In this document: piece after piece, positions 5,292 through 62,800 of the stretch
Position numbering within the stretch: position 1 is the stretch's first letter
Layout: each line of letters opens with the position of its first letter
Source of the DNA: a phage
DNA: 64,000 nucleotides
Sequence record: PZ540767.1
Strand: one strand, 5' to 3'
Notes under the pieces: model-generated
Seen by the model: the letters and a program-made list of their open reading frames with translations, nothing else
Told to the model about the DNA's origin: nothing
The model's database searches: none
Translations under genes and position numbers: made by a program

Positions 5292-6368
5292 ATGGCTATT
5301 AGACTGCAACAAATTGCTGCACCTAACTTTGCTGGTTCTAACCAATTACTGCTGGCAGCAAACCAGCAGATTGGTAATGCTCTCCAGGGGCTACAAGGCA
5401 CCCTGGGGCAGTATCGTGATGAAGTAGTACGCCGTAATACAGCTCAGGCTGTAGGACTGCTTACTGGGGCTACAGATGCTAATGATCTGGCCCAGCGTCA
5501 ACAGCAAGTAGCACAGTTGGTTCAGCAAGGGGATATTGACCCCACTCGTGTATCTGAAGTGGCAGCAACCATGCCAGATACTTTGTTAGGACGTCAGACT
5601 AATCAGCTAAAGCTGAACCAGATTCAGACTGCACAGCATGATGCACCATTAATGGGTGCTTATATGCAAGCTGTTATGTCTGGGGATCAGAATGCAGCTA
5701 AAGGTATTTTGTCGCAATTCCAGGGGGATGCTTCAGATGCTCTGAAGTTTGCCTCTGATTGGGATATCAAAAACCAGCAGTTGAATCTTCAACGGTCTGA
5801 ACTGGCACAGCGTCAAGCTCAGTTTGCTGCAACTCAGGCAGCAGCTAAGGCAAGAGCCGGGCAGAGTAATGCACTGCTTAAAGCCTTACCTGGTTTGCTT
5901 AACACAGGTAATGATATTCAGGGGAAGGCTGAAGCCAGGGATTTACAGGCTAATGCTCAGGATGCTCAACAACGTGTTGCTATGGATCCTATAAACAACC
6001 CTAAGCTTAATGTTGCTGGGTGGGCTGATGCTAACAGTGATGTTTGGTTTAGGGGCTGGGGAAGACAGGCAGACTCTGACAGAATTTTTAATGCTCTGAA
6101 GGATCAACCAGCTTTTAAAGCACTTAATCCTCAACAGCAGATAAATATCCTAGACGGTGCCCTTGCTAATGAAAACTCCCGCGAAGATAAGGGAAATGTT
6201 TCTACTGTAAATGCTGCTACTAAGTATCTGACTGATGCAACGAAGCGCTTAAATACCCTGAAGATTACTTCACGGCAAGCAGAGGATGCAAAAGATCAGC
6301 AATCTGTTATGCAAGAGCAAAGGGATCGTTTAAATAAGCTGCTTCTGCCCTTACTTTTCCAACAGTAA
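5292..6368 (+). CDS. Gln/Ala-rich coiled-coil protein (358 aa), virion module
   Basis: ORF; stop overlaps start of the giant ORF (ATGA-type coupling geometry). Confidence 0.6.
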   Translation: MAIRLQQIAAPNFAGSNQLLLAANQQIGNALQGLQGTLGQYRDEVVRRNTAQAVGLLTGATDANDLAQRQQQVAQLVQQGDIDPTRVSEVAATMPDTLLGRQTNQLKLNQIQTAQHDAPLMGAYMQAVMSGDQNAAKGILSQFQGDASDALKFASDWDIKNQQLNLQRSELAQRQAQFAATQAAAKARAGQSNALLKALPGLLNTGNDIQGKAEARDLQANAQDAQQRVAMDPINNPKLNVAGWADANSDVWFRGWGRQADSDRIFNALKDQPAFKALNPQQQINILDGALANENSREDKGNVSTVNAATKYLTDATKRLNTLKITSRQAEDAKDQQSVMQEQRDRLNKLLLPLLFQQ

Positions 6369-9300
6369 TGAGGTTACAATCTGGGTACTCCACAATACTA
6401 AGGAATACTCAGATGGCTGGTAACTCATCTCCTCTGGACAAGTTTCTTGTCCCACAACAGGTAACAGGTCAGGAAGCTGCTCAGGCACTTCCTGCACCTA
6501 CCCAACCAACTATCGCCCAGCGTGTGAATGATGCTTCTACTCGTATCCTGAATAACCTCACAGGACAGGGTATGTATCCTACAGAAGAAGGCGAGATTGC
6601 TCGACTCAAACGAATTAATAACGAACAGTCGGCATATGCTAAAGAAGTAGCTGCAAAAGATTCAGATTACGGTTGGTCTTCTACCAACTTCTTAGATCCT
6701 GAAACGTCTTCATTGACTGATCGTACAGCTTCTACCTTTGTTAACTATGGCAAAGCTCTTACTGATGCTGTTAATGGTCTTGCAGGCAAAACAGATAAGA
6801 CTTTCAAAACACTGGGTAATGTGCTGGATCAGGCTTCTATTCCTAACGATGCACTGGATGCTTATCGTCGTGTGCAAGCTGGTAAAGGCACCGAAGCTGA
6901 TAATGCCCTGTTAGATCGTCAGGGTGCCTGGTGGACACAGCCTATTGAAGTAAATCAATATGGTGTACCAGAGATGGGTAACCAGACTCTTCGTCAACGT
7001 CTGGATGCTATCAACGAACGTCAGAAAACCCAAAACCAGAGTAGCTATGACAATCTTGAGAAACTAGCTAACCCTGTTCAAATGCAGCAAGCTGCTGCTG
7101 ATATTGAGAAATCAATTGAAGGTAAATCAGGACTTGATAAATTTGCTGCTGGTTTAGCTGCTATTGCTCGTAACCCTGGTGCTGCTGGTCAGACTATGGT
7201 GGAGTCTGCTCCATACATGGTTGGTGGTATCCCGGGTATGCTTGCTTCCTCTGCTATGCAGGGTGGCTCAGTATTGTCTCAGTATCTGGATACCCAACGT
7301 AAAGCTTCTGATGGTCAGATCCCTACAGCTAAAGATGTAGCTATCGGTACTGGTTTGGGTGTTGTTGATGGTGCTCTGAACTTTGCAGAAAGTATCATTA
7401 ACCGTACTGCTATGCTTCCAGGATCTAAAGTATTACCTGCCGGAGTTGCTGATCGTCTGGTGAACGCAGCACAGCGCATCGCACCACGCAGCTCTACGGC
7501 TGCTGCTGCTCTTGCGCGTGTGACTGCTCCTACCCTTGACCTTGCTAAGAATGCCTTAACTGAAGGTCTGGTATCTGGTGCTCAAAACCAGATTGAGGAG
7601 AACTATGCGAAGGGTAAAAATGAATGGGATACCAAAGGTAATGATGTTGCTTTCTTCCAGGGGATTGCTGCTGCTACTGGTTTTGGTGCTCCTCGTGCTG
7701 CACTTAGTACTGCTGGTGAAGTAGCTAATACTGCTGCTCAGGCTATGCAGAAACGTACTGAAGCACAAGATCCTGTAGGCCAAGCTGCTCGTAATACCAC
7801 CCCAGAAGACTTAATGAATCCACAGTCAGAAGGATATAACCCAGCTGCTGCAATTCGTCGTGCTGGTATGGAGTGGACTCGTAACACTGATGCTACTACT
7901 GATGAACAAAAGGCTGAGATTCAATCTCAGGCTCAGTCAGCTATGGATGCTGCACAGAATGATCACCAGAATAACCTGGATATGATTAACCAGAGGGCTA
8001 CTGCTGAACGTACTCTTGCTGACGCTGGTAAGTTTATTCCTGCTATTCAGGAGAGACTGGATCAACTTAGTAATGATCCTAATGCAGATCCTGATGCTGT
8101 TAATCAGTTACAAACCATTCTGGCTCAACAGACTGAAGCTCGTGATGCTGCACAGCAACAACTGGATGCTATGCCTTCTCAGGAGGAACTGGCACAGTCT
8201 GCTACCCGTTCTGCTGAAGTACTGGATCAGGCTAAGTCTGAGTTTGGTAAGTTCTCGTCAGCTACTGGTATGAATACCAATACAGCTAAACCAGAGAACC
8301 CAACAGCTTCTGACATTATCAGCCACCCAATGTCTTATACCAATGAAGACCTGCAAGAGTTTGTGCGTAATGCTCCTGCTAATGCTACCCCTGCTGAATT
8401 GGGTACGCTTCGTGCATTAGCTGATGCCAAAGTTGCAGAGAATGCTGTTAAGACTGGTTCTAAGGTTAATAGTGAGATCTTCAAATCCACTTCTAATAAC
8501 CTGTCACTGGGTGATTACCAACAGGGTATTAACACTGCTGTACAAGCTGGTGATACTAACCGTATCCAATCCCTGATGACTGGTATCAACAACTTTGAAA
8601 CTTCCCATACTGCTAAAGCAGATATTGCTCAACAGTACCTTAATGAAGCTAAACAGAATGGTAAGTCTTACCAGATCCTGAAAACTTCTAATGGCTGGGA
8701 GTTAAATACTGGCAAACGTCTGGATGCTAAAGCACAGGCTAAGAATGGTGGCTTTACTATCCACAAAGGCTCTACTGGTCTGGTTAACAATATTGTTAAT
8801 GAGGCCAAAGCTATTACAGCCACTCGTCAGTATATGGAAGGCATTGCTACCCCATCTACTAACCAGAATGTGACTGGCTCGACTGAGCAAGTAGCAAGCC
8901 CGGAGGCGCAGCCCGAGGGTGCAGCTACTGTAGCAGGAGAGACAGGAGCACAAGAACAACAAGCACAACCAACAATCAGCCCACTGACCACACGAGATAT
9001 TCGTGCAATGGATCAGGCAACGCTGGAAAAGGTTATGGCTACTACTCAGCAGGCTATGTCTTCTGACACTAATCCTGTACTGGCTCGTAACCTGGATGCA
9101 CTTGACCGTGAGTGGACTCGCCGTGCTGATGTGGCTACTAACCAGAATCGTGGTGTTGATGCTCCTCACCGTAAACTGGATGACTCCTTTAAGCCTAAAG
9201 CTCAGGAGAATGAGATCCAGCGTTCACAGGCTGAGACTACTACTCAAACTGAGCACACCCAGGCTGACATTGACAATGAGTCTACTGGTTCAGAATCTCA

Positions 9301-12300
9301 ACAAACTGCCCCAGTTAACGTAGATGATGTTGTTACCAACACTGATACTTTGACTGAGACTCAACAAGATAATGTAGCTCATGGTGCTCTGAGTATCTTT
9401 GGTAAAGTTGGTGAGTCCCTGAAAGCTCTGCGTGAGAAAGCTTTGGCTGAACCTAAAGGCTTACAGAACCTTGTGCTTACTGGTTTCAACCAGCGAGTTC
9501 GTCCAGGTTTTGGTAGCCCACTGGTAGCAGTGAAAGACTTTATCAATACTCTGAAAACTGCTGTGGATACTGGTAGCTTCACTGAAGTTAACCGTTTCCT
9601 GAAACAGCATATCAGTGAGTCGAAAGCTGAAGGTGCTAAACAGAAAGCTCTGCTGAAACAGTTTGTGGAATTCCATGATCACATCACAGCTAACCTGGAT
9701 AACATCATCCGTACTAAAGCCCCTGAGTATCGTTATCAGGACTTTGCTCAGTTTATCTTGGATGAGAATGGTAACTTTGACTCCAATACTAAAACTGGTA
9801 TTGCAGCAGGTATCTTCTCCTGGCTTGGTGAGAATGGGGATAAGATGTTCCTGAACCAGAGTGAAGTAGCTAAAACTCTGCGTATCAAAGAAGATCAGTT
9901 AACTCCACAAGCCATGTCTCGTATGGCTGATATTGGCTATCGCCAAGACTTGATCATGTCCCAACTTGGTCAACGTATTTATCAGGCTATGGGCTTTGCT
10001 AAACGTGCTGACGTTGATCCTAACCGTGCCAGCAAATTGCAGAATGCTCTGGGTGCTTATGCTCTCCATGCCATGTATTCCAATGGCTATATGGAACAGT
10101 CTTTAATGACTGCTAAAGAGTACTTCGATCTGCAAACCATGGGTCTGGATGAACAATCAGCTAAAGAAGCTGCACAAGCTTTCCAGAATGACTTTGGTGT
10201 TTCCCCTAACGATGCCAAGCACAAGATTGTGTTTAGCCGTCCTGCACGTAACTTTGATGCAGAAGGTAAACCAGTAGCTATTGAAGCTATCTCTGACATT
10301 AAGAATGGAATGAAAGATACCCGTTCTCTCATGTCTAAGCTGTTCGGTTATGATCCTGCTGTACGTGAGGTTCTGACCACTAAGCCTGCTGGTTTCAAAC
10401 AGAAAGTCTTCGGTAAAATGAATCGTGAAGTTCCTTCTGTTTTGGCTGCTCGTATCAGCAAAGCAATGCAATATGACTACACCATTGATCAGGGTGTAGT
10501 GAATGCTATGCGTACTATGTCCACTGTAGATAATGCTGCTCTGCAACATATCTTTGGTGTACGTACTGATGCTGATGTGCCCAATGAAATGGAGATCTTC
10601 AAGAAAGGACGTGAAGCCAAGAATGCTGATATCCAACGTTCTATGGAAATGGGTTTAGACTTTGCTAACCGTAGGGGTACTAACCCATTCTGGATGCCTA
10701 TGGAAGTCTGGACTAACCAACGTATTGGTGATCTGGCTTCAGAGTTCAACCCACAGGGTTCCAAAGTACACCGTGCTATGGGTGGCTTGAGTGCTCACCA
10801 GGTAGAGATTTCTGTAGCCCGTAATGCTCCTGTGCTGGACGCAGATGGTAAGCCTACTCAGTATGGCCTGTTCCTTGTATCCCTGGCTCAGGGTATGGAA
10901 GAAGCTCCTGTAATTGGTGCTGATGGTAAGAAACTGAAGTCTGTTGATAAGCAGACCTATGCTACCTTCTTACCTGCTTTCCAGAATTACCTGCGTAAAC
11001 CAGAGAACATTAAGGCTGTACGTGCTATGCAGAAAGTGATCGCTGGTTCAGCTACTACTGCTGATACCAACGTCATTAAGAATGCTGTGGCTGAGTATGG
11101 TATGAATGGTCAGTCTTTTGCTGCCCTGCATAACCTGGCTCAGTATGCTACTGCTCTGGAATCTGGTAAGTCTTCTGTTAAGCTGCTGGCTCAAATGGAA
11201 TCGGACGGTGTTACTAACGGCCCTATCCTGACTAACATCCTGAATGGCTCTGCTGACTTCGATCTACTGAAGCGTGGTGGTATTTATCGTGAAGGTGACA
11301 ATATTACCAACATGCCTACTTATCGTGAGTTGGGTGGTCAGGATTACTACGAGCTGCTGGGTGATGCTATGCGTCAGCATTGGGCTGATTACAAAACCAA
11401 TGCACCTGCTAGTCAGCAAGGTCAGATTCAGGCTCTGGAATATTTCTCTACTGGTTATGGTGCTCGTTCTAAGGCCAAGACTCTGGCTACCCCATTCAAC
11501 TACTCTGCTGGTATTCCAGCACTGAAAGCTGCTATGGGCCGAGCTACTGTAGAGGATGTTTACTCTAAGATTGGTTCCCTGATCCCACTGGCTAAAAGCA
11601 ATAACAAAGCAGACTTTGCCAAGGCTTATGCTGAGGTGAGTAAAAACCTTTCTGTACTCCTGGGTCAGAAAGTAAATCTGCCACGTACTGCTGATGGTCT
11701 GGTTAAGTTCAGCCTTAACCCGGCTCAAACTAAACGCATCATTGATGTGGATTCTCAGACTCGCGGTGTTGCTACAGAGACTGCTGTTAATGAGGTTGCT
11801 GCTGACTTCATTGCATCTCGTGATGCTAATACCAGTCTGGTTAACACAACCTTTACCCTGGCTAACCTTCGCTACAATGCTGCTAAAGCTGCACTGCTGA
11901 AGAAGCGTATTGCTGAGGGTAAAATCCCTGTGGATGCTAAAGGTGCTCCATTGGAAGGACTCACTCAGGCAGATCTGGATAAGCTATCCCGCATGATTCC
12001 TAACATGCCTTCTGCAACTGGTGTTCTGTCTGAGAATACCAAAGCTTCTGGTTACCCAATGGCTAAGGTGGAGAAAGCTTTTACTGCTAAGTCTCCTGCC
12101 ACCAGCATTGATATCTACTTCAAAGAAGCTGCTAACCCTAAACCAGCAATGGATGCTAATGGGATGCTGCTGAGTCAAGGTCTGGTAGGTGGATACAAAT
12201 CTACCCAGTCTACTGTGACTGAGACTAAGCTGACTAACCCTGGTGTTGCTATGGGTGCTAACGTTACTCAGGGTACTGATGCTGCAATCAGCTCTGATGT

Positions 12301-15300
12301 AATCAGCAAGATCGAAAGCCAGAACGTGCATGATGCTAACATCCTGTCTCCTGACAATGTGCTGAAAGGTGCTCGTATCCAGAACAAAGCTATGTTTGAT
12401 GCTGTGGTTTCTTATCATCCTCAACATCTGGCTGCTTCTGCACTGCTGACTGAAGTTCGTAGTCTGGCTGGTGCTAACCTGTCTACCAACGACAAGGTTG
12501 CAGCGAAGAAAGCTCTGGAAGCCATGAAGACTAAGATCCTGGGTAAAGACTTCAAGGGCAACATGAAAGCTGCTCTGAACACTATCCTTAACCAGGCATA
12601 TGATCGTGACATTAAGAAACTGGAGACTCTCTCTGAAGTCTATGCTGTTAACCAGTATGGTACTGAGGGGGGTGAATACCTGATCACTGATACTGATCGT
12701 AAGAAAATTGGTGATGAGATTGCACGTCTGAAACGTAGTCGTGCTGCTGGCTTACAACGTATCTCTGCTATGTTCTCTAAGGGTAATGCCCCAAAGGCTG
12801 AGGCCAACCAGTATCCTGATAAGATGAGACAATACCTGTATGAGGCTTCGGCCTCTACAGGCTCTGTGTCAGCTTCTGAGGTGATGGCTCGTACCAAAGG
12901 TAAGTTTGCTAACCCAGTATATAACGAACTCCACAATCTCATTTCTGGTTTGATTCCAGCTGATGCTGTGGTGAACGTACTGGATGGGCAGACTATGCCT
13001 AAGAATGTTAAGGGGCAGTCACTGCCCCAGAACCGTGATGCCATTGCATGGTCTTATCAAGATAAAAACACTGCACAGGTTAACCTGTCACTCAGCAAAG
13101 AGGCTTCACCTGAAGTCTTGCTGCATGAACTGACTCACATTGCTCTGGGACGTGCAATTGCTACTGCTGATTCAAATCCAAAAGTAAAAGCTGTACTGGC
13201 CCGTACAGAGAAGCTAATGGGTAGAGTGACCAAGCTGGTTTCAGCTGATCCTCAATTGACTCAGAAGTTTGCCCCTGCTTTGGCTAACGTGGATGAATTT
13301 ATCTCCTGGGGTATGACTAACCCAGAATTCCAACGTTACCTTGATACCATCACTGGTGTGCCTGAAATCTCAGGTCGTAACCGTGGATGGTTGGGTACTG
13401 CCTTTAAACAGTTTGTGGATCAAATGTCAGGCATCTTTGCTGCTGTAACTGGTCGAGCTATTAATGCTCGGGTTACTACTGCTCTGGAAGCTCTGACCTT
13501 CGATACTGCACATCTGGTTCAGGCTATTAATCCTACTGCTATTGAGAGTCCTGTATCTTCTATCAGCCACCCTATGAGCAACACTAACAGTGCTGCTGAT
13601 CAGGTAGCTAAGTTTAGCCATGTGGATATCTTTGATAACCTGGCTTCAACAGGTGGCAAGACTAACTCAGCACAGTTCACAGGTAACCTCCGTAATGTAA
13701 TATCCACTGTGGCGGATCAGCTTTACGGTGCTTTAGGCTCCAGAGTCACCCAGAATGCCAATGAGAATTATACTCCTGGTCAAGTCTGGAATGAGGCTGT
13801 AGCCACTGGGAAAGCCCCTGTCAGCACCGAAGCACTGAGCAATGGGTTTGTACTGACTAATCAGGAAGCCTTTGCTGTGGAGGCCATTGAGGCTGCTGTA
13901 TCTGAATCTCTGGCTTCTGGTTTCACTTCACCAGTTAACCGGGAGATTCGTCGTACTTGGCAAGCTGCTAAACAATCCCTGAAACCAGAAGACTTCCATA
14001 ATGGAAACTGGAATCAGGCAACTCAAGCAGAAAAACGAGCTGCTCAACAGAAATGGAATTATCTGTTTGATGTAACGAATGACTCTGGTGAGTCCCAGCA
14101 TCTGTCTCGTTTCGTTGCTATGGCTATTGGGCATGAAGACACCAGTAACTTACTTGGCTTCCAGATGGAAGATGGTAAGGACTCTGGTAATACTGCCTTT
14201 GAACAGGCTACTGCTTACTTTAACCAGGCTGTTAATACAGTCTCTGGCATGTTGACCAATACCCATCAAGGACAAGCTGCAAATGCTCGTGCTCAAGCAC
14301 TAGCTGAAAAGCTGATCCAGATTGAACTTAAGAACCGTGATACCACCATGAATATTCTTACTGGTGGGATCGACAAAGTAGAGAATGCCTTAGATACGGC
14401 TGCTGCTAAGTCTAAACAGTTCCTGGGTAAAATCGTTAAAGCTACTGGTATTGATCAGTCCTCCAACAATGCTCTGAATGCTATGGGCAAAGTTGCAGGA
14501 TTGGCTGCTCGTGATCAGCTGGGTAGCCTGAAAGAAACTATTAAAGAGTTCCGGGACTTTAATGCCCCTAGTACTCCAGAAGGTTCTCTGGCTTCCATTC
14601 TGACTGAAGCAACGAATGCTGATGATGTTCGTGCTCTGCATGAATCTCTGTTACGTTCTACTAAACGTATTGAACAGGATCGTGCAACCTTAGCTGCTGT
14701 TACTGCTAAGAACTTAAATGAGATGTTTGATAACAATGGTCAAGACCTGACTAAAGAAGATCGTACAGCAATGACTTACTCACTGCTTCGTACTGATCTT
14801 CAGTCTGTGTTGCACATTGAAGGTATGAACCTGAATAACTTACATAAACTGGTTTCTAATACTGGTTATCGTAAGCAGCAGATCAATAACCTTGAGAAAA
14901 CCATTAGCCAGTATGCTAACGGTAATGATAAGATCATTCGTGCCAAGGCTCTGGGATTCTGGATGGCTACTGGCAGAAATACCCTGGGACGTGATTTAGT
15001 TCTGAATGCAAAAGCTATTGCTACCGGAGCTGCTACTCACTATTCCACAGTAGGTATCGAACCGACTCTTGATGAAGTGAACGCCATTGATGCTCTGGCT
15101 TCAATGTACGCTCTAAGCTACACCAAGACCGAAAACCGTGTTCGCACTGCTGCTGTAATGGAACGTGAGCTTGCACGAGGTAAAGACAATGGCATTAAAA
15201 TGCTGATGGCTACTTATGCGAACCTGATTGAGGATTCTGCTAATACGCTGTTTGCTGGTAACCAGTTGTCTCGCATTAAAGGCTATTTGCCTGAAGATAC

Positions 15301-17050
15301 CAATCCTCATCATGACTTACGTGCGGTTGAGTCGGGGAGTGCAGATGAAGCAGCACTGGTGAACATGGGATACCAAAAAGTATCCCCACTGTCCCAGGAC
15401 TCTTTGTCAAAACACTCTGGACGTGTACTGTATGTGACCAAAGAGAATGGGTATCAACGAACCGTCTCTGGTACTTTCAGTTTAACTGGAAGCCAGCGTA
15501 AAGGTTCTTCCCTAAGTGGGGATCGTGCTGTTGCTGATCGTGTTCGAGCTGACGAGTTAGAACAGTTAAGGCAAGCGTCCTATGCAGACGTGCGAGGGCG
15601 TGAAGCACTGTCCCACACTGCCTTTGATCCTACTCAGATCCAGGATAACCATGTAGTGCCTGTATTAAGCACTGATGGTCATATCATGGACTTCCGTTAC
15701 ATGGCTACCCACAATACTCGTGACACGTTCCTTGATCGTAATAATGACTTTGCTGACCTTGTTGGTCGTCTGGCTGGTCAGAATATCGATAAGGGTGATG
15801 CCCCAAGCCAGAATGCTAAGATCCTGGAAGCTCTGCATGAAGACTCTAAGGCTAATATCCTGAAGAATCCTAATGCTTACTTTGAGATTGGGCCTAATGC
15901 ACCTACTGAGCGAGGACGTGAGATCTGGGCAATGATGCCTTATGAAGCACGTACTAAAGCTACTTCTCTGTGGGGTGCTGATCGTATGTATATTCGAAAC
16001 GATCTGGTTAACCTTACTTTTGGCTTCCGTAAGTATTCACTGGCTAACATTTTTGATGTTGATCCAGAACAGCGTAATATTGCTCAGGGTGTTGCTGCTG
16101 GTTTACTTGAAGCTGCTTTTGGTGATAAGGCTAAAGCTTATGTAATTAAGGGTGAGCGTGGCATTCAGGAATTTATGCAGTCCTATAAGGACGTGATCGT
16201 TATTCGTAACCTGAAAACCCAGTTCAGTAATATTATGTCTAATACTGCTCTACTGGCTGCTTATGGCGTTAACCCGGTACGTATGGTTAAAGATATCCGT
16301 ACTGCTCTGGTTGCTGGGATTGACTACCGTAAACAGTACTCGCTGCTACTCAAGTATCAGCAACAGCAACGTGCTGGTATTGGTAACTTTGCTCAGATGG
16401 AGTCCCTGATCAATGAGACGCAGGATCGCTTGAATGCTAACCCTCTGGCTAAGTTTATTCAGGCAGGTATGATGCCTACCATCGTAGAAGACGTTCAGCC
16501 TGATGCTGATGGTTACACTTATGGTTCTAAGATCCGTAAGAAATTTAATGAGGTATCTGCCCATCTGCCAGCTTCTGCTGTAACAGCTGCTCGCTGGGCT
16601 GTGATTGATAAAGGTACTGCACCTCATAAATTCTTAAGTGATGCTGCTCAGTTCAGTGACTTTGCTGCTAAGTATGCTCTGTATAAGCACCTGACAGAAC
16701 ATGCCCGAGATCGCCTGAGTCATACTGAGGCTTTACAACGTGCATCTGATGCTTTTGTTAACTATGACATTCCAGCTACAGCTACTCGCCAATATCTGGA
16801 TGATATGGGGATTACCATGTTTACGAAGTATCGTGTTCGTATCCAACGTGCAATGTTCTACTTGATGGATAAACGTCCAGCATCTGTTATGGCACATATG
16901 GCAATTACAGGGCAGTTTACTCATGCACCTGATGCTATGGAGCCACTGTTTGCACGTAACTTAGGTAACCCATTCACACCTTCAGTATTGCAGGGTGGGA
17001 GTTTGTTGAATGTCCCAATGCCTTGGAACTTATTCAGAATGGCATACTAA
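6368..17050 (+). CDS. Giant virion-associated RNA polymerase (vRNAP-like, 3560 aa)
   Basis: Single uninterrupted 10.7-kb ORF; size class matches N4 vRNAP (~3500 aa); sits at the end of the structural operon; followed by a strong terminator. Confidence 0.8.
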   Translation: MRLQSGYSTILRNTQMAGNSSPLDKFLVPQQVTGQEAAQALPAPTQPTIAQRVNDASTRILNNLTGQGMYPTEEGEIARLKRINNEQSAYAKEVAAKDSDYGWSSTNFLDPETSSLTDRTASTFVNYGKALTDAVNGLAGKTDKTFKTLGNVLDQASIPNDALDAYRRVQAGKGTEADNALLDRQGAWWTQPIEVNQYGVPEMGNQTLRQRLDAINERQKTQNQSSYDNLEKLANPVQMQQAAADIEKSIEGKSGLDKFAAGLAAIARNPGAAGQTMVESAPYMVGGIPGMLASSAMQGGSVLSQYLDTQRKASDGQIPTAKDVAIGTGLGVVDGALNFAESIINRTAMLPGSKVLPAGVADRLVNAAQRIAPRSSTAAAALARVTAPTLDLAKNALTEGLVSGAQNQIEENYAKGKNEWDTKGNDVAFFQGIAAATGFGAPRAALSTAGEVANTAAQAMQKRTEAQDPVGQAARNTTPEDLMNPQSEGYNPAAAIRRAGMEWTRNTDATTDEQKAEIQSQAQSAMDAAQNDHQNNLDMINQRATAERTLADAGKFIPAIQERLDQLSNDPNADPDAVNQLQTILAQQTEARDAAQQQLDAMPSQEELAQSATRSAEVLDQAKSEFGKFSSATGMNTNTAKPENPTASDIISHPMSYTNEDLQEFVRNAPANATPAELGTLRALADAKVAENAVKTGSKVNSEIFKSTSNNLSLGDYQQGINTAVQAGDTNRIQSLMTGINNFETSHTAKADIAQQYLNEAKQNGKSYQILKTSNGWELNTGKRLDAKAQAKNGGFTIHKGSTGLVNNIVNEAKAITATRQYMEGIATPSTNQNVTGSTEQVASPEAQPEGAATVAGETGAQEQQAQPTISPLTTRDIRAMDQATLEKVMATTQQAMSSDTNPVLARNLDALDREWTRRADVATNQNRGVDAPHRKLDDSFKPKAQENEIQRSQAETTTQTEHTQADIDNESTGSESQQTAPVNVDDVVTNTDTLTETQQDNVAHGALSIFGKVGESLKALREKALAEPKGLQNLVLTGFNQRVRPGFGSPLVAVKDFINTLKTAVDTGSFTEVNRFLKQHISESKAEGAKQKALLKQFVEFHDHITANLDNIIRTKAPEYRYQDFAQFILDENGNFDSNTKTGIAAGIFSWLGENGDKMFLNQSEVAKTLRIKEDQLTPQAMSRMADIGYRQDLIMSQLGQRIYQAMGFAKRADVDPNRASKLQNALGAYALHAMYSNGYMEQSLMTAKEYFDLQTMGLDEQSAKEAAQAFQNDFGVSPNDAKHKIVFSRPARNFDAEGKPVAIEAISDIKNGMKDTRSLMSKLFGYDPAVREVLTTKPAGFKQKVFGKMNREVPSVLAARISKAMQYDYTIDQGVVNAMRTMSTVDNAALQHIFGVRTDADVPNEMEIFKKGREAKNADIQRSMEMGLDFANRRGTNPFWMPMEVWTNQRIGDLASEFNPQGSKVHRAMGGLSAHQVEISVARNAPVLDADGKPTQYGLFLVSLAQGMEEAPVIGADGKKLKSVDKQTYATFLPAFQNYLRKPENIKAVRAMQKVIAGSATTADTNVIKNAVAEYGMNGQSFAALHNLAQYATALESGKSSVKLLAQMESDGVTNGPILTNILNGSADFDLLKRGGIYREGDNITNMPTYRELGGQDYYELLGDAMRQHWADYKTNAPASQQGQIQALEYFSTGYGARSKAKTLATPFNYSAGIPALKAAMGRATVEDVYSKIGSLIPLAKSNNKADFAKAYAEVSKNLSVLLGQKVNLPRTADGLVKFSLNPAQTKRIIDVDSQTRGVATETAVNEVAADFIASRDANTSLVNTTFTLANLRYNAAKAALLKKRIAEGKIPVDAKGAPLEGLTQADLDKLSRMIPNMPSATGVLSENTKASGYPMAKVEKAFTAKSPATSIDIYFKEAANPKPAMDANGMLLSQGLVGGYKSTQSTVTETKLTNPGVAMGANVTQGTDAAISSDVISKIESQNVHDANILSPDNVLKGARIQNKAMFDAVVSYHPQHLAASALLTEVRSLAGANLSTNDKVAAKKALEAMKTKILGKDFKGNMKAALNTILNQAYDRDIKKLETLSEVYAVNQYGTEGGEYLITDTDRKKIGDEIARLKRSRAAGLQRISAMFSKGNAPKAEANQYPDKMRQYLYEASASTGSVSASEVMARTKGKFANPVYNELHNLISGLIPADAVVNVLDGQTMPKNVKGQSLPQNRDAIAWSYQDKNTAQVNLSLSKEASPEVLLHELTHIALGRAIATADSNPKVKAVLARTEKLMGRVTKLVSADPQLTQKFAPALANVDEFISWGMTNPEFQRYLDTITGVPEISGRNRGWLGTAFKQFVDQMSGIFAAVTGRAINARVTTALEALTFDTAHLVQAINPTAIESPVSSISHPMSNTNSAADQVAKFSHVDIFDNLASTGGKTNSAQFTGNLRNVISTVADQLYGALGSRVTQNANENYTPGQVWNEAVATGKAPVSTEALSNGFVLTNQEAFAVEAIEAAVSESLASGFTSPVNREIRRTWQAAKQSLKPEDFHNGNWNQATQAEKRAAQQKWNYLFDVTNDSGESQHLSRFVAMAIGHEDTSNLLGFQMEDGKDSGNTAFEQATAYFNQAVNTVSGMLTNTHQGQAANARAQALAEKLIQIELKNRDTTMNILTGGIDKVENALDTAAAKSKQFLGKIVKATGIDQSSNNALNAMGKVAGLAARDQLGSLKETIKEFRDFNAPSTPEGSLASILTEATNADDVRALHESLLRSTKRIEQDRATLAAVTAKNLNEMFDNNGQDLTKEDRTAMTYSLLRTDLQSVLHIEGMNLNNLHKLVSNTGYRKQQINNLEKTISQYANGNDKIIRAKALGFWMATGRNTLGRDLVLNAKAIATGAATHYSTVGIEPTLDEVNAIDALASMYALSYTKTENRVRTAAVMERELARGKDNGIKMLMATYANLIEDSANTLFAGNQLSRIKGYLPEDTNPHHDLRAVESGSADEAALVNMGYQKVSPLSQDSLSKHSGRVLYVTKENGYQRTVSGTFSLTGSQRKGSSLSGDRAVADRVRADELEQLRQASYADVRGREALSHTAFDPTQIQDNHVVPVLSTDGHIMDFRYMATHNTRDTFLDRNNDFADLVGRLAGQNIDKGDAPSQNAKILEALHEDSKANILKNPNAYFEIGPNAPTERGREIWAMMPYEARTKATSLWGADRMYIRNDLVNLTFGFRKYSLANIFDVDPEQRNIAQGVAAGLLEAAFGDKAKAYVIKGERGIQEFMQSYKDVIVIRNLKTQFSNIMSNTALLAAYGVNPVRMVKDIRTALVAGIDYRKQYSLLLKYQQQQRAGIGNFAQMESLINETQDRLNANPLAKFIQAGMMPTIVEDVQPDADGYTYGSKIRKKFNEVSAHLPASAVTAARWAVIDKGTAPHKFLSDAAQFSDFAAKYALYKHLTEHARDRLSHTEALQRASDAFVNYDIPATATRQYLDDMGITMFTKYRVRIQRAMFYLMDKRPASVMAHMAITGQFTHAPDAMEPLFARNLGNPFTPSVLQGGSLLNVPMPWNLFRMAY

Positions 17051-55649: not shown

Positions 55650-56924
55650 TTAGCTTAATGCATAGTTGGAACCACGGATTTTATCTCCGAGGTTGTTAGA
55701 CAGTTTGGTATATACCCCATCAGTGCTTCCATACAGCTGGTTCATCAGGGATTGCAGAATGGTGCTATCAGCGAATTCTGCCAGCATCTCTTTGTACCAG
55801 TACCGTACTTCATTACAGTTGTTTGGATGGGAACCAAAGGCATCGTGAACAGTAGCCACAGGGAATGGTTTGTAGGTCAGCATGAAGTTAACTTTACGCA
55901 TTACATCACGAGCTAAGTCGATAGGTAACTGCATGTAGTTGCTCCAGTTGATATCGTTGAGAATAACCATAGAAGACTGCTTATTCTCATTCCACAGACG
56001 GATACGACGTACCATATCACCAGTAGCTTCTTCAGCCTGCATACCCATGCTATTAGCCAGCAGACGTGCTTCCAGCATCTTCTGCACCTCTGCTACCAGT
56101 TCTGGATCGTAGTTGCACAGACGCTCCAGCTCACGCAGCAGATAGGCATCACAGCAGTGAATGGTATTGGCTACGTTAGCTCGGCCTTTCTCTGTACCCC
56201 GGTTCTCTTTGTATTCCATGGTGAAAGTAGCGTGATCAAGCTCATCTACTTCAATTCTGGTTTCCAGAGTTTCCATGACTTTCATCTTAGCGATGAAGCC
56301 ATCAGGCAGCTCCAGAACGTGTTCCAGAGCATACGGACGCCAGGAACCCAGGAGTTCATCCATGAGGTTGAACGCACCAGGAGCGATGATGTGGGCTGCT
56401 TCGTAGAAGTAGTCCAGCATCTCGCCCTCACCGAATACCTTCTTAGGCACAGCCTTAGAACCGTAACCAGAGGTCATTACAGCTTGTTTGATATGGCTAC
56501 GAGGTACTTGGATACTATCCAGACCTTTACGCTTCAGAACGCCATTCATGGCGTCTGTAGTGTTGCTGTAGGCATCCATACGCTTCTCTGGGTCAATACA
56601 ACCAGTGTTGTATGCACCTCTCTCACAGCCTGTGAGGGCACTCATAATCTGAATTCCAGAGCAGCAACCATCCCAGTAGGTGATGTTGCCTACAGCTTCC
56701 CCACGCTGTACACGACGTAAAGTCATAACAGCTTTGTGGTACAGCTCAGGGGTTTCAGCATCTTGAACCTTAGATTCCAGATCCTTGATGTTGTCGTATA
56801 CCCACTGAATACGTTCTTCGAACAGTTTCTTGTCCAGACCGTAATAGTTGGCTACGTCGATGCACATGTATTCCCAACCAGACATATATTTGAAGTTTGG
56901 GCCATAAGCGGTGTTGATTACCAT
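55650..56924 (-). CDS. Phage RNA polymerase II, large (catalytic) subunit; T7-like single-subunit RNAP C-terminal half
   Basis: 'DGCCSGIQIMSALTG' (T7 RNAP motif A-like DGSCSGIQ) and 'VHDAFGSHP' (motif C-like HDSFG). Confidence 0.85.
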   Translation of the reverse strand: MVINTAYGPNFKYMSGWEYMCIDVANYYGLDKKLFEERIQWVYDNIKDLESKVQDAETPELYHKAVMTLRRVQRGEAVGNITYWDGCCSGIQIMSALTGCERGAYNTGCIDPEKRMDAYSNTTDAMNGVLKRKGLDSIQVPRSHIKQAVMTSGYGSKAVPKKVFGEGEMLDYFYEAAHIIAPGAFNLMDELLGSWRPYALEHVLELPDGFIAKMKVMETLETRIEVDELDHATFTMEYKENRGTEKGRANVANTIHCCDAYLLRELERLCNYDPELVAEVQKMLEARLLANSMGMQAEEATGDMVRRIRLWNENKQSSMVILNDINWSNYMQLPIDLARDVMRKVNFMLTYKPFPVATVHDAFGSHPNNCNEVRYWYKEMLAEFADSTILQSLMNQLYGSTDGVYTKLSNNLGDKIRGSNYALS

Positions 56925-56941
56925 TAGTTAAGTCTCTCTAT

Positions 56942-57949
56942 TTAAAGTTTAAATTCATCAGGCACACCAGTTACTTGCTCTTTATTGGCAAAGTTTAAAC
57001 TGGCTTTCTTGAAGGGAGTGCCTTGAAGGTTGATGTGATAACCCTGGGTATACAGACGTCCACGTTTGTCAGGTTTATTGCCAAAGTAGAACTTATTACC
57101 CTGGTTTACCATCAGGCTATAGAAGTAGTACGACTGACGTTTGTAACGCATCCAGTTGTCTTTCTGTTTACGTACCAGATCAGCCTTCTCCCACGGTGTG
57201 AGAGGTTTCTTACGGTGTTTCTGGAGCTTCTCTTCATCGATCTCATTGAGATCAAATGTAGGTTCTTCTTCGTAGTTACAGAGGAATTCTACGTCCAGAG
57301 AGTAAGGCACAGCATTACGGCTGTTGATTACATCCAGACAGATATCCTCATTATGGTGATTGAATGATCCCCCTAGAATAAGGCTATCAGATGAATAAGT
57401 AAGGTAAGGAGTATCCATGTTATGGGTAAGCTTCTTGGGTGGGCAAACCAGTGGTGGTAGATAACACGAACGCTCAATGAATTGAGCCAACTGGTCAGGC
57501 AACCCAATATTGCTAACGATATACAGAGATGCTTTAGGATGAGGCTTGTTAATGTCATATACATCAGTATCCGTAAGGACAGCAACGATTTCAGCCATAG
57601 TCTGAATGCTGTCACGTTTATCATCGAAACCCAGTCTGGAAGCCAGCTGGCCTACTACGTTGACCATTGGAGTAGGTTCAGGGAAATACATAATTCCCAC
57701 GAACACTTCTTTCACAATAGCTTCCAGATCAAGGGATTTGAGGTGGTTAAGGCGTACAGCTTTAGAGTCGTAATACTCACCCTCAAGCCACTGGTTTAAC
57801 AGAGATACACCCTGTTCTACCTTGTCTAACAGGTTGCAATCAGGGTCTTCAAACAGCTCTTTACGGATATAACCATCAATATGTTTCCTGTTGAACTGAC
57901 GTTCATTGATGGCCTGAAGTTCCTCAACTGGTAACCATTTATGCTGCAT
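56942..57949 (-). CDS. Phage RNA polymerase II, small subunit (N-terminal half of split T7-like RNAP)
   Basis: Immediately upstream of catalytic subunit in same orientation; 335 aa; N4 gp15/gp16-like split arrangement. Confidence 0.65.
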   Translation of the reverse strand: MQHKWLPVEELQAINERQFNRKHIDGYIRKELFEDPDCNLLDKVEQGVSLLNQWLEGEYYDSKAVRLNHLKSLDLEAIVKEVFVGIMYFPEPTPMVNVVGQLASRLGFDDKRDSIQTMAEIVAVLTDTDVYDINKPHPKASLYIVSNIGLPDQLAQFIERSCYLPPLVCPPKKLTHNMDTPYLTYSSDSLILGGSFNHHNEDICLDVINSRNAVPYSLDVEFLCNYEEEPTFDLNEIDEEKLQKHRKKPLTPWEKADLVRKQKDNWMRYKRQSYYFYSLMVNQGNKFYFGNKPDKRGRLYTQGYHINLQGTPFKKASLNFANKEQVTGVPDEFKL

Positions 57950-60344: not shown

Positions 60345-60566
60345 TCATTTATTGTCCTGTGGACAATATACCTCCCAATCTGTCCATTTTTGAGCTAGGA
60401 AGCCTTCTACAGTATCTGTGATAGTATGGCCATCAAGAAATCTTACAAGTATTATACTATCCTGGGACAATGTTATATAAGAACCACTATCCCATACTGA
60501 TCTTTTTATCTTAGCCCCTAGTTTCAGCATTAATAATGCTTCTTTAGCAGTCATATAATGTACCAT
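60345..60566 (-). CDS. DUF2829/Tad2-like small protein, copy 1
   Basis: N-terminus 'MTAKEALLMLKLGAKIKRSVW'. Confidence 0.5.
   Translation of the reverse strand: MVHYMTAKEALLMLKLGAKIKRSVWDSGSYITLSQDSIILVRFLDGHTITDTVEGFLAQKWTDWEVYCPQDNK
60350..60368 (-). promoter_or_regulatory. Hairpin promoter candidate, instance 2
   Basis: + strand ataTTCATTtattgtcc-TGT-ggacaata; overlaps 3' end of the preceding small ORF; ~75 nt upstream of ATG 60278. Confidence 0.5.
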
Positions 60567-60742
60567 TCATGTGATTCATCGAAGAATGAACAGAATTCAG
60601 ATACTTTAATAAGCCCAGGTGGGATAGTGTTATCACAACATACATTATCCCCTTTGATATAATAAAAGAGTTCTGGTTTCATCCAGTCAGCTCTGATCTT
60701 ACATCCGATCTTCATTGCTAACAGGGCTTCCTGAGTCGTCAT
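60551..60742 (-). CDS. DUF2829/Tad2-like small protein, copy 2
   Basis: Start at internal ATG 60742: 'MTTQEALLAMKIGCKIRADW'. Confidence 0.5.
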   Translation of the reverse strand: MTTQEALLAMKIGCKIRADWMKPELFYYIKGDNVCCDNTIPPGLIKVSEFCSFFDESHEWYII

Positions 60743-60938
60743 ATAATTTCCACTCCATATCTGCATATTCTTCAGTAAACTTATTAACAGCACAGGCTAG
60801 ACTGACAAAGTTTAATGGTTTATGTACATAGCAAATACAGTTGCCTTGTAAATCATAATAGTTAGTATAATCAGTCCAGGTAGCAGGAATAACCTTGCAA
60901 CCTATTTTCATTGCAAGCAATGCTTCAGCTGTTGTCAT
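60699..60938 (-). CDS. DUF2829/Tad2-like small protein, copy 3
   Basis: 'MTTAEALLAMKIGCKVIPATW'. Confidence 0.5.
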   Translation of the reverse strand: MTTAEALLAMKIGCKVIPATWTDYTNYYDLQGNCICYVHKPLNFVSLACAVNKFTEEYADMEWKLYDDSGSPVSNEDRM

Positions 60939-61128
60939 TGAATAACTCCCAATTATCTACGTCACCATAACAAGGTATATAGTCTTCAAGTACCAAATGG
61001 GGAGTACCATCTTCATTAACTGTTATATCATCTATAGGATCATATTGTACCCAATCACCTGGTGCCCATGTTTCCCTTCGTACTTTGCATCCTAGTTTAA
61101 GAGCTAGTACTGCTTCTTTGGTTTTCAT
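60925..61128 (-). CDS. DUF2829/Tad2-like small protein, copy 4
   Basis: Start at internal ATG 61128: 'MKTKEAVLALKLGCKVRRETW'. Confidence 0.5.
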   Translation of the reverse strand: MKTKEAVLALKLGCKVRRETWAPGDWVQYDPIDDITVNEDGTPHLVLEDYIPCYGDVDNWELFNDNS

Positions 61129-61174
61129 CCCCTGTCTCCAGTAGACCGATTCACAAGAGTGTTCGGAGAACACG

Positions 61175-61670: not shown

Positions 61671-61922
61671 TCAATTGTAGTTTTCGTACATGTCGTAGCA
61701 CACTTTGAAGTGTTTACGAGCTTTACGTATTTGCTTACGAGTAGGCTTAGTTACAAACGTATAATAACGTTCGTAGGGCAGACCATAGTTATGATTAGTT
61801 ACCGATTGTTGACTGAATACCAGTTGCCAGAAACTTGGCACTGATTCAATGATGCCATTACCAATACTAAACTTGTATGCGGATACAAATACAACATCGG
61901 TATAGATTGTAGTAGTGCTCAT
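61671..61922 (-). CDS. Early protein, paralogue A of 'TKPTxKQ(I/V)R' pair (83 aa)
   Basis: 'YTFVTKPTRKQIRKARKH'. Confidence 0.45.
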   Translation of the reverse strand: MSTTTIYTDVVFVSAYKFSIGNGIIESVPSFWQLVFSQQSVTNHNYGLPYERYYTFVTKPTRKQIRKARKHFKVCYDMYENYN

Positions 61923-61935
61923 AATTACCTCTGGT

Positions 61936-62127
61936 TTAATGTACTGGGATTACTAAAGTATTATGACCAGCAAAGCTGACTTTATTACTATCTTTGATGA
62001 GCACACAGTTATGGTTATCACCATCTTCTGTGGCTTTCTGCCATACATTACGGTCACCATATGCCCATGTCTGAGCAAACATGAACTGAGCACCATCTTC
62101 TAATTCATGGAATTTAATTACTTGCAT
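61936..62127 (-). CDS. Hypothetical early protein (63 aa)
   Basis: ATG after agagga RBS. Confidence 0.4.
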   Translation of the reverse strand: MQVIKFHELEDGAQFMFAQTWAYGDRNVWQKATEDGDNHNCVLIKDSNKVSFAGHNTLVIPVH

Positions 62128-62192
62128 GATTTAATCCTCTAATTCAGCATATTGATTAATAGCCCTGGTTTCACAGGGCTTATTAAATAGGG

Positions 62193-62477
62193 TTAGAACC
62201 AATGTGGGTAATCAGCCATGAACTGGGCTAATTCACGCTCATGCTCACTGATAGCTGTACGCTTACAACGACGTACTTGCTTAGCTGTAGGCTTGGCTGT
62301 AAATGCATACTGGTGCATTGATGAGGACATGGGATTGTTATCCACTACCAATTCAACAGCTACACACCATTGAGCAGGTTGAACCATATCATCAGGGAAA
62401 CCGCTACGTTTAGTGATTTCGTTAACTGCACAAGGGTCAGCAGGTAAGAACATTACGGAGGTTTTAATAACACGCAT
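62193..62477 (-). CDS. Early protein, paralogue B of 'TKPTxKQ(I/V)R' pair (94 aa)
   Basis: 'YAFTAKPTAKQVRRCKRT'. Confidence 0.45.
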   Translation of the reverse strand: MRVIKTSVMFLPADPCAVNEITKRSGFPDDMVQPAQWCVAVELVVDNNPMSSSMHQYAFTAKPTAKQVRRCKRTAISEHERELAQFMADYPHWF

Positions 62478-62529
62478 AGTTAATACTCCAATAGGTTATA
62501 TACCCTGGCTTACACCAGGGCTTGAGTGA

Positions 62530-62745
62530 TTAGAATGGGCAACCAGTTTCAGCTTCGAGCTTGTCCATGAAGTAGCCTTCATTGTGCAAGCGAGCGTGCA
62601 GCTCTACATGACTTTGCATACGATAGTTATCGAGTAATGACAGGAAGTCTGCATACTCGGTATCAGTTGCCCTACGAGCATTACTCATGTCTACAGGCTT
62701 AGTGCTAAAGCAATTCTCAATCATACGAATGTCAGAAGTACGCAT
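62530..62745 (-). CDS. Hypothetical early protein (71 aa)
   Basis: ATG after ggag RBS; ~40 nt downstream of hairpin promoter instance 3. Confidence 0.45.
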   Translation of the reverse strand: MRTSDIRMIENCFSTKPVDMSNARRATDTEYADFLSLLDNYRMQSHVELHARLHNEGYFMDKLEAETGCPF

Positions 62746-62782
62746 AGGTATATCTCCAATAGATTAAGTGGACACTTCTATT

Positions 62783-62800
62783 CATTGCCTGTAGGCAATG
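62783..62800 (-). promoter_or_regulatory. Hairpin promoter candidate, instance 3
   Basis: + strand cttctaTTCATTgcc-TGTA-ggcaatg; 7-bp stem. Confidence 0.5.

What the first reader, a model, noticed from the sequence alone, without database searches (positions are those of the whole stretch)
61671..62477. Paralogous pair of early proteins sharing a basic 'TKPTxKQ(I/V)R' segment
61671-61922 and 62193-62477 share '(Y)(T/A)F(V/T)(T/A)KPT(R/A)KQ(I/V)R(K/R)...' near the C-terminus while the rest has diverged. This is a second example of a duplicated and diversified small early gene family in this region.
Basis: seen in the sequence. Interest (0 to 1): 0.4.

Follow-up and report, generated by a model that had tools for sequence, protein, structure and literature searches.

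The report
Two divergent TifA-family anti-toxin genes
The two small early genes are real but distant relatives, both members of the known TifA family of phage RNA-binding proteins (phage T4 TifA disarms the bacterial ToxN suicide RNase), and the shared 'KPTxKQ(I/V)R' segment is that family's RNA-binding motif.

Summary
ORFs 61671-61922(-) (A, 83 aa) and 62193-62477(-) (B, 94 aa) share YxFxxKPTxKQ(I/V)R. Their alignment beats all 5000 shuffles (z 7.8).

Both pass Pfam's threshold for DUF7279. That unlabelled family contains phage T4 gp61.4, which is TifA, the ToxN inhibitory factor (eLife 2022, NAR 2023). The shared motif is TifA's Pro-Thr helix cap plus basic cluster. Mutating it in the RB69 protein abolishes RNA binding and ToxN inhibition.

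AlphaFold2 models (pLDDT about 87) share the published core of a small N-terminal beta-sheet (three long strands in B, five in A) packed on a basic C-terminal helix, with variable loops.

The window is an N4-like Klebsiella phage of the Efbeekayvirus type. The genes lie in its early region.

"Duplicated in situ" is not supported:
- A and B are 24% identical.
- Each scores at least as well against T4 TifA as against the other.
- Each has 51-67% orthologues in other phage genera.
- Close relatives carry none, A only or B only.

B's orthologue, TifA of Pectobacterium phage CB4 (67% identity), was already tested. It failed to neutralise any ToxN or TenpN tried, so the targets of A and B are unknown.

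Verdict: two new members of a known family, of modest interest.

The parts
61671..61922 (-). Gene A, 83 aa. TifA-family (Pfam DUF7279) protein of the 'A clade'. Its orthologues are in P19-618, Enterobacter SABI and SonariX, Pectobacterium Horatius and Possum, and Klebsiella 05F01.
   Evidence: ORF. PF23945 at 49.2 bits against a cut-off of 24.5. PHROGs 2375, 12748, 7840 and 8921. AF2 model with pLDDT 86.8, five strands plus helix 62-81. Orthologue distribution.
62193..62477 (-). Gene B, 94 aa. TifA-family (Pfam DUF7279) protein of the 'B clade'. It is the orthologue (67% identity) of the published TifA of Pectobacterium phage vB_PatP_CB4.
   Evidence: ORF. PF23945 at 46.5 bits. phrog_12748 at E = 2e-24. 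AF2 model with pLDDT 86.5: strand 2-11, low-confidence insert 12-35, strands 36-45 and 53-59, helix 65-89. 67% identity to CB4. CB4 TifA sequence from Table S2 of PMC10853763.
61713..61757 (-). Motif of A, residues 56-70 (FVTKPTRKQIRKARK). It comprises the end of the last strand, the Pro-Thr helix cap and the basic N-terminal turns of the C-terminal helix. This is the inferred RNA-binding site.
   Evidence: Motif position. Secondary structure. F, P and Q invariant and K, T, K at least 90% conserved in the 29-sequence family alignment; F, K, P, K and Q invariant in the 25-sequence A/B alignment. Function of the equivalent residues in RB69 and T4 TifA (PMC10853763).
62259..62303 (-). Motif of B, residues 59-73 (FTAKPTAKQVRRCKR). 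Same element as in A. Ala65 replaces the first basic residue after the PT cap.
   Evidence: and PMC10853763.
62783..62800 (-). Context, inferred only. Hairpin CATTGCC-TACA-GGCAATG upstream of the 71-aa gene 62530-62745. It resembles the annotated N4-type early promoter 1 that directly precedes the B orthologue in phage CB3. It is the likely start of the early transcript that carries B and A.
   Evidence: Sequence. DNA fold of -7.1 kcal/mol, z = -2.2. CB3 annotation and sequence, including the shared CACTTAAyCTATTGGAG leader. No transcript data exist.
62472..62498 (-). Context. Leader and ribosome-binding segment (TAACCTATTGGAGTATTAACTATGCGT) in front of B. It is repeated at 81% identity in front of the 71-aa gene (62740-62766) and in front of CB3 tifA. 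It is a plausible recombination joint for cassette exchange (inference).
   Evidence: Direct repeat D3. Sequences.

Best explanation
A and B are two divergent members of the TifA family, which Pfam lists unlabelled as DUF7279. TifA proteins are small phage early proteins built from a small N-terminal beta-sheet packed on a basic C-terminal helix. The shared 'KPTxKQ(I/V)R' segment is the family's Pro-Thr helix cap followed by solvent-exposed Lys/Arg residues. In T4 and RB69 TifA this element binds RNA and is required to neutralise the abortive-infection endoribonuclease ToxN, by trapping it on abundant RNA such as 16S rRNA.

By homology, I infer three things. Both window proteins bind RNA through this helix. 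Each uses its own clade-specific loops to capture a host RNA-directed defence toxin early in infection. The two therefore give the phage two different specificities. The clade-specific loops are 'HNYGLPYER' plus a beta-hairpin in A, and 'NNPMSSSMHQ' plus a 24-residue disordered insert in B.

The two genes were brought together by exchange of small accessory cassettes in the early region, not by local duplication.

Shown: homology, family membership, motif, predicted fold, genomic position and patchy distribution. Inferred: RNA binding (about 0.75), an anti-toxin or anti-defence role (about 0.55), and ToxN itself as a target (about 0.2).
For: Family membership:
- Both proteins pass the Pfam gathering cut-off for PF23945.
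- T4 gp61.4 scores 72.7 bits on the same model.
- T4 gp61.4 is found at E = 5e-12 by a profile built only from the window proteins and their metagenomic relatives.
- T4 61.4 was renamed tifA and shown to inhibit ToxN (PMC9391042).

Mechanism of the motif:
- P53A/T54A and K55A/R56A/R59A abolish RNA co-purification in RB69 TifA and its rescue of ToxN toxicity. The same substitutions in T4 TifA abolish ToxN co-immunoprecipitation (PMC10853763).
- These positions align with P60 T61 R62 K63 R66 of A and P63 T64 A65 K66 R69 of B.

Fold:
[quoted passage not shown] B has three long strands as published; A has five.

Literature recognition:
- B is 67% identical to TifA_vB_PatP_CB4, which the authors themselves list as a tifA homologue.

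Loops:
- The loops are conserved within each clade but differ between clades, as the paper describes for the specificity loop.

Context:
- The genes are in the early region, next to a Tad2-like anti-Thoeris array.
- T4 tifA lies in the dmd-tifA-adfA 'anti-TA island'.
- The CB3 orthologue is the first gene after an annotated N4-type early promoter.

Mosaic origin.
Against: No experiment was done on A or B.

The closest tested relative of B is CB4 TifA. It was well expressed but neutralised none of the ToxN homologues tried (E. coli, P. atrosepticum, K. pneumoniae, S. sonnei, V. kanaloae, Serratia), nor E. coli TenpN. So the anti-ToxN function does not transfer automatically, and any defence target is hypothetical.

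B has Ala at the position of RB69 K55.

A and B are only about 26-27% identical to T4 TifA over 37-42 residues.

Early timing is inferred from gene position only.

Confidence: 0.6

Rival explanations
1. A and B are general RNA-binding early proteins with no defence target. They might coat or protect early phage transcripts, or bind 16S rRNA or ribosomes to bias translation. On this view the T-even TifA-ToxN interaction is a lineage-specific add-on.
Against: The genes are dispensable accessories: 0, 1 or 2 copies occur among near-identical phages. That pattern fits host-strain-specific counter-defence better than a core RNA-handling role. The clade-specific loops are strongly conserved within clades, which suggests specific protein partners. 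The genes sit in anti-defence-rich neighbourhoods.
Confidence: 0.2
2. One reading: a recent local tandem duplication in this phage lineage, followed by rapid divergence everywhere except a constrained basic segment.
For: The two homologous genes are 270 bp apart on the same strand, separated by one 63-aa gene. Several TifA-family copies also occur in the same region of other genomes: three in E. coli phage KKP 3715 and two in T4-like UPEC07. T4 is known to amplify tifA segmentally under selection.
Against: A and B are 24% identical and are not each other's best non-self hits. Each has 51-67% orthologues in other genera and families. Close relatives have A only, B only or neither, and no database phage has both. 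There is no DNA-level trace beyond 39 nt at the motif.
Confidence: 0.1
3. Chance resemblance of two unrelated basic peptides, or non-coding ORFs.
For: The proteins are short and the similarity is concentrated in about 15 residues. The N-terminal halves alone are not significant.
Against: None of 5000 shuffles reaches the score. Both pass a curated Pfam threshold. Both have conserved full-length orthologues in many phages. Both give confident AF2 models with the same core.
Confidence: 0.01

Closest known systems
TifA (ToxN inhibitory factor A, gp61.4) of phages T4, T2, T6 and RB69
   Same: Same Pfam family, PF23945. Same size class (68-85 aa against 83 and 94 aa). Same predicted architecture of a small beta-sheet plus a basic C-terminal helix with variable loops. 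Same Pro-Thr cap followed by basic residues, which is required for RNA binding and ToxN inhibition. Both are early genes in accessory, anti-defence-rich regions.
   Different: Only about 26-27% identity over 37-42 residues. The loops differ: A has an extra beta-hairpin, and B has a 24-residue disordered insert and a longer helix ending in DYPHWF. The phage family differs (Schitoviridae against Straboviridae). The dmd-tifA operon context was not looked for here. The target is untested.
TifA homologue of Pectobacterium phage vB_PatP_CB4 (N4-like, Cbunavirus), tested in Guegler et al. 2023
   Same: It is the orthologue of B, with 67% identity over the full length. It has the same position near the start of the early region, directly after an N4-type hairpin promoter in the sister phage CB3.
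   Different: It is from a different genus and host. Its phage carries only this B-type copy, with no A-type. It was inactive against all ToxN and TenpN toxins tested.
Dmd (T4 gp61.5) and AdfA (T4 gp61.2): small phage-encoded anti-TA proteins
   Same: The concept is the same: small early accessory proteins that act as surrogate antitoxins, clustered in an 'anti-TA island' with tifA.
   Different: I found no sequence relationship. Dmd binds RnlA/LsoA directly and needs no RNA.
Double-stranded-RNA-binding domains and ribosome hibernation factors (fold resemblance only)

Membership tests
TifA family (Pfam PF23945 / DUF7279) | Significant match to the family profile that contains the experimentally characterised T4 TifA (gp61.4). 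| tested here: met
   A scores 49.2 bits and B 46.5 bits against a cut-off of 24.5. T4 TifA scores 72.7 bits on the same model. In the reverse direction, a profile built from A, B and their relatives finds T4 gp61.4 at E = 5e-12.
TifA family (Pfam PF23945 / DUF7279) | Conserved Pro-Thr capping the C-terminal helix, immediately followed by a cluster of basic residues (RB69 P53 T54 K55 R56 R59). | tested here: met
   A has K59 P60 T61 R62 K63 Q64 I65 R66 K67. B has K62 P63 T64 A65 K66 Q67 V68 R69 R70, so one basic position is Ala. P and Q are invariant, and K, T and K are at least 90% conserved across 29 family members.
TifA family (Pfam PF23945 / DUF7279) | [quoted passage not shown] | tested here: met
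   B has strands 2-11, 36-45 and 53-59, helix 65-89, and a low-pLDDT insert at 12-35. A has the same core plus a beta-hairpin at 16-28. Published description. The models were not superposed on a TifA model, because none was available to the tools.
TifA family (Pfam PF23945 / DUF7279) | Early expression. | tested here: inconclusive
   Position only. The genes are on the same strand, upstream of the RNAPII-like genes, in the N4-type early region. The orthologue CB3_002 follows an annotated early promoter. A promoter-like hairpin lies at 62783-62800. There are no transcript data.
TifA family (Pfam PF23945 / DUF7279) | RNA binding through the basic helix. | not testable with these tools
   Inferred from conservation of the residues whose mutation abolishes RNA binding in RB69 TifA.
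TifA as a functional class (inhibitor of the type III toxin ToxN) | Neutralises ToxN toxicity or restores plating on toxIN+ cells. | not testable with these tools
   Literature only. The closest tested relative of B, CB4 TifA at 67% identity, did not neutralise ToxN from six species including K. pneumoniae, nor TenpN. No A-clade protein has been tested.
dsRBD (double-stranded RNA-binding domain) | alpha-beta-beta-beta-alpha fold with a significant sequence or structure match. | tested here: not met
Known anti-phage defence proteins (PADLOC) | Match to a defence-system profile. | tested here: not met
   No hit at E up to 10.

The most novel reading that the evidence does not exclude
The two N4-like TifA clades do not target ToxN. 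Each uses the conserved RNA-binding helix as a common 'glue' and its clade-specific loops to trap a different RNA-directed defence effector of Enterobacterales that has not yet been identified. Candidates include other type III or RNase toxins. The A+B pair, and the three copies in Gamaleyavirus (one membrane-anchored, one zinc-ribbon-fused), would then be a modular multi-specificity counter-defence battery. TifA would be a general scaffold for RNA-dependent inhibition of immune nucleases, and these proteins could serve as baits to find new defence systems.
Probability: 0.3. Interest if true: 0.55.

Novelty: new member of a known kind. Interest (0 to 1): 0.3.

Why it matters
The result turns two 'hypothetical proteins' of a therapeutic-type Klebsiella N4-like phage into candidates with a concrete, testable mechanism: RNA-dependent trapping of a host toxin.

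It links the unlabelled Pfam family DUF7279 and PHROGs 2375, 12748, 7840 and 8921 to the characterised protein TifA.

It shows that TifA homologues are shuffled as single-gene cassettes among unrelated virulent enterobacterial phages. These include Schitoviridae, Tevenvirinae, Ounavirinae, Stephanstirmvirinae and a 249-kb phage (SonariX). Several divergent copies often occur in one genome.

The only tested N4-like member does not inhibit ToxN. These clades therefore mark an open question: what do non-T-even TifAs target? Host-range differences among otherwise near-identical Klebsiella phages that carry 0, 1 or 2 copies could be exploited to answer it.

Tried and rejected
Searches that gave nothing useful:
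- Profile search of PDB sequences: no hit at E up to 10.
- PADLOC: no hit.
- Full-text search for 'DUF7279': no papers.
- A broad search on N4-like early genes and host takeover: nothing relevant.
- Foldseek against BFVD returned only uncharacterised family members.
- The afdb50 library was unavailable.

Negative results on distribution:
- Phage N4 itself has no family member in its first 9 kb.
- The 124-126-aa genes that occupy the A or B slots in P19-618, BM327-1.1 and Horatius are not family members.
- tblastn with P0035 found nothing in the phage collection.
- The exact A protein is not on record in the contig index.

Artefacts and corrections:
- In the exhaustive search, P0034 (836 aa) is an artefact of PYTFVTPPT-type repeats. 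P0026 (2371 aa, no scored stretch) is presumed to be one too.
- I first recalled tifA as T4 61.2. The papers show it is 61.4, and 61.2 is adfA.
- The GC hairpins flanking B are not followed by T-runs and were not called as terminators. Their role is left open.

Full report
**What is there.** The window is an N4-like podophage.
- It encodes a 3560-aa virion RNA polymerase ORF at 6368-17050 and RNAPII-like genes at 55650-57949.
- Its nearest DNA relatives are about 76-kb Klebsiella phages of the genus Efbeekayvirus, family Schitoviridae.
A is 61671-61922 (83 aa) and B is 62193-62477 (94 aa). A 63-aa gene (61936-62127) lies between them.
- They lie in a run of small same-strand genes about 4 kb upstream of the RNAPII genes. 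This is the position of the N4 early region.

**Is the similarity real?** Yes.
- BLASTP of A against B gives E = 8e-6 with 24% identity over 70 residues.
- The local alignment score is 54, against 22.8 +/- 4.0 in 5000 shuffles. No shuffle reached it.
- The signal sits mostly in YxFxxKPTxKQ(I/V)R. The N-terminal halves alone are not significant.
- Alignment with 23 relatives shows columns invariant across both subfamilies: T8, W32, F56, K59, P60, K63, Q64 and Y79.
- Both proteins independently exceed the curated threshold of Pfam PF23945 (DUF7279), at 49.2 and 46.5 bits against 24.5. They also share PHROGs 2375, 12748, 7840 and 8921.
- A profile search of all six frames finds only these two copies in the window.

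**Structure.**
- AlphaFold2 gives confident models, with pLDDT of 86.8 for A and 86.5 for B.
- A has strands 7-13, 16-20, 24-28, 31-38 and 50-56, followed by helix 62-81.
- B has strand 2-11, a low-confidence insert at 12-35, strands 36-45 and 53-59, and helix 65-89.
- The common core is a small beta-sheet backed by one C-terminal helix. The KPT segment is the loop and N-cap of that helix, and the following Lys/Arg residues occupy its first turns.
- Sequence search of the PDB gave nothing.
- Foldseek against viral models returned only uncharacterised relatives from phages Possum, EcS1, VR25 and PM2.

**Identification.**
- An exhaustive profile search of 1.84 billion representative proteins found only 21 clusters at E of 0.001 or better. 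Apart from two long hits (one shown, one presumed, to be repeat artefacts), all are small proteins with W...F..KPTxKQ.
- tblastn with one distant member hit 49 phage genomes. These include Schitoviridae, FelixO1-like Ounavirinae and T4-like phages.
- In the T4-like phage UPEC07 the hit lies immediately after dmd. That position corresponds to T4 gene 61.4.
- T4 gp61.4 matches the profile built from the window proteins' relatives at E = 5e-12. It scores 72.7 bits on PF23945.
- The literature shows that 61.4 was renamed tifA. T4 escapes the type III toxin-antitoxin defence toxIN by amplifying dmd-tifA, and TifA inhibits and co-precipitates ToxN (PMC9391042).
- The follow-up paper (PMC10853763) describes the AlphaFold model of TifA. 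It has a three-stranded N-terminal sheet packed on a C-terminal helix with a low-confidence loop. [quoted passage not shown]
- In that paper, TifA binds RNA with a KD of 0.36-2.3 uM. P53A/T54A or K55A/R56A/R59A abolish RNA binding and toxin rescue in RB69 TifA, and ToxN co-immunoprecipitation in T4 TifA. TifA is proposed to trap ToxN on 16S rRNA.
The alignment places RB69 P53-T54-K55-R56-R59 on A P60-T61-R62-K63-R66 and on B P63-T64-A65-K66-R69.

**A direct literature link for B.**
- Supplementary Table S2 of PMC10853763 lists 'tifA from Pectobacterium phage vB_PatP_CB4', an N4-like Cbunavirus. It is 67% identical to B over the full length.
- That protein was shown to be well expressed. It neutralised none of the ToxN homologues tested (E. 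coli, P. atrosepticum, K. pneumoniae, S. sonnei, V. kanaloae, Serratia), nor TenpN. Only the T2, T4, T6 and RB69 proteins were active.
- Family membership of B and A is therefore secure, but an anti-ToxN function cannot simply be transferred.
- The authors note that the loop containing residue 41 is conserved only within close relatives and probably sets toxin specificity.
- The same pattern holds here. 'HNYGLPYER' is conserved in the A clade and 'NNPMSxSxHQ' in the B clade, and the two are unrelated to each other.

**Evolutionary reading.** The interpretation 'duplicated and diversified in this region' is not supported.
- By BLAST score A and B (26.6 bits) are no closer to each other than to T4 TifA (28.1 and 28.9 bits). 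A scores higher with TifA homologues of T4-like, Gamaleyavirus and FelixO1-like phages, at 32-37 bits.
- A-type genes occur in P19-618, Enterobacter SABI and SonariX (249 kb), Pectobacterium Arno152, Horatius and Possum, and Klebsiella 05F01 (147 kb, Stephanstirmvirinae).
- B-type genes occur in BM327-1.1, HS106, Pectobacterium CB1, CB3, CB4 and Nepra, and E. coli KKP 3715 and PD205.
- No record is in both lists.
- Among Efbeekayvirus genomes whose flanks are at least 90% identical, FBKp27, BM327-1.2 and P184 have no member. P19-618 has only A. BM327-1.1 and a Logan contig with an identical B have only B.
- The alternative occupants of the slots, 124-126-aa genes, are unrelated.
- At DNA level only 39 nt at the motif are similar, at 74%.
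- A conserved leader, TTAAyCTATTGGAG...ATGCGT, precedes B, the neighbouring 71-aa gene and CB3 tifA. It is a plausible joint for cassette exchange, but this is inference.
- Multi-copy states recur elsewhere. E. coli Gamaleyavirus KKP 3715 has three DUF7279 genes, and T4-like UPEC07 has two.

**Most likely mechanism.**
- Shown: homology to TifA, conservation of the residues that make TifA bind RNA, the same predicted core architecture, early-region location, and an accessory, mobile distribution restricted to phages of Enterobacterales.
- Inferred: A and B are made early. They bind abundant cellular RNA through the basic helix. Through their clade-specific loops they capture and inactivate an RNA-directed host toxin or defence effector, each with a different specificity.
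- I put RNA binding at about 0.75, a counter-defence role at about 0.55, and ToxN itself as a target at about 0.2, because of the negative CB4 result.
- The main rival is a general RNA-binding role without a defence target. It is compatible with the inactivity of non-T-even homologues. It fits poorly with the 0/1/2-copy variation among near-identical phages and with the clade-conserved loops.

**Novelty and interest.** The family, its motif and its mechanism are published, and the B clade is explicitly listed as a tifA homologue. What is new is modest:
- the A clade in N4-like phages;
- the co-occurrence of two clades in one early region;
- the equation DUF7279 = TifA;
- the mosaic presence and absence.

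The open question, what non-T-even TifAs target, is real but is not created by this finding.

Noticed in passing
window 60345-61173 (-): Four tandem, partly overlapping small genes of 73-82 aa share the N-terminus M(T/K)T.EA(L/V)LA(M/L)K(I/L)GCK. One passes the Pfam Tad2-like (Thoeris anti-defence 2) threshold (60925-61173, 26.9 bits). Another is just below it (60345-60566, 21.9 bits).
   Followed up: partly
window 62783-62800 (-), with leader repeats at 62740-62766 and 62472-62498: A hairpin, CATTGCC-TACA-GGCAATG, lies upstream of the 71-aa gene. It is followed by CACTTAATCTATTGGAG. It closely resembles the annotated N4-type early promoter 1 plus leader of Pectobacterium phage CB3 (L004 957-1010). 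The leader is repeated at 81% identity directly upstream of gene B.
   Followed up: partly
window 62502-62521 and 62156-62186 (-): Two related GC-rich hairpins (GCCCTGG...CCAGGG and AGCCCTG...CAGGGCT) bracket gene B. Neither has a following T-run, and neither was called as an intrinsic terminator. DNA fold z-scores are -2.8 and -3.9. They could be cassette boundaries, vRNAP signals or RNA-stability elements.
   Followed up: partly
L005 (Escherichia phage KKP 3715) 547-909, 991-1269, 1930-2244; protein P0031: Three DUF7279/TifA-family genes lie in the first 2.3 kb of a Gamaleyavirus early region, flanking the N4 gp2 homologue (here split into two ORFs). The first has an N-terminal hydrophobic, transmembrane-like segment. 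The third has a C-terminal CYECGK...NYAHTNC zinc-ribbon-like module. The same module is N-terminal in metagenomic member P0031.
   Followed up: partly
L012 (Escherichia phage UPEC07) 2953-3192 and 4345-4566: This T4-like phage carries two TifA-family genes. One is JS98-type at the 61.4 position after dmd. The other is a vB_EcoM_005-type copy 1.2 kb downstream. They are deposited as 'DNA polymerase' and 'nucleotidyltransferase', which are evident misannotations.
   Followed up: partly
L013 (Citrobacter phage Moogle) 3001-3222: A FelixO1-like TifA-family gene (gp4) sits next to nicotinamide phosphoribosyltransferase and ribose-phosphate pyrophosphokinase, which are NAD-salvage genes, and next to rIIA. 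This is another accessory neighbourhood of counter-defence type.
   Followed up: no
Pfam PF23945 (DUF7279); PHROGs 2375, 12748, 7840, 8921: These database families are labelled 'unknown function', although they contain the experimentally characterised T4 TifA (72.7 bits on PF23945). No paper in the library mentions DUF7279.
   Followed up: yes
window 61936-62127 (-) and 62530-62745 (-): The 63-aa gene between A and B (phrog_23646, E = 3e-10) and the 71-aa gene upstream of B (phrog_20790, E = 1e-42) are conserved hypothetical early genes. They are retained in relatives that lack A and/or B, so they form the stable frame into which the TifA cassettes are inserted.
   Followed up: no
proteins P0026 (2371 aa) and P0034 (836 aa): These are spurious hits of the family profile in the exhaustive search. 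P0034 was retrieved and is a long repeat protein with ...PYTFVTPPT... repeats that mimic the YTFVTKPT motif. P0026 was not inspected. It is very long and had no scored stretch, so it is presumed to be the same kind of artefact.
   Followed up: yes
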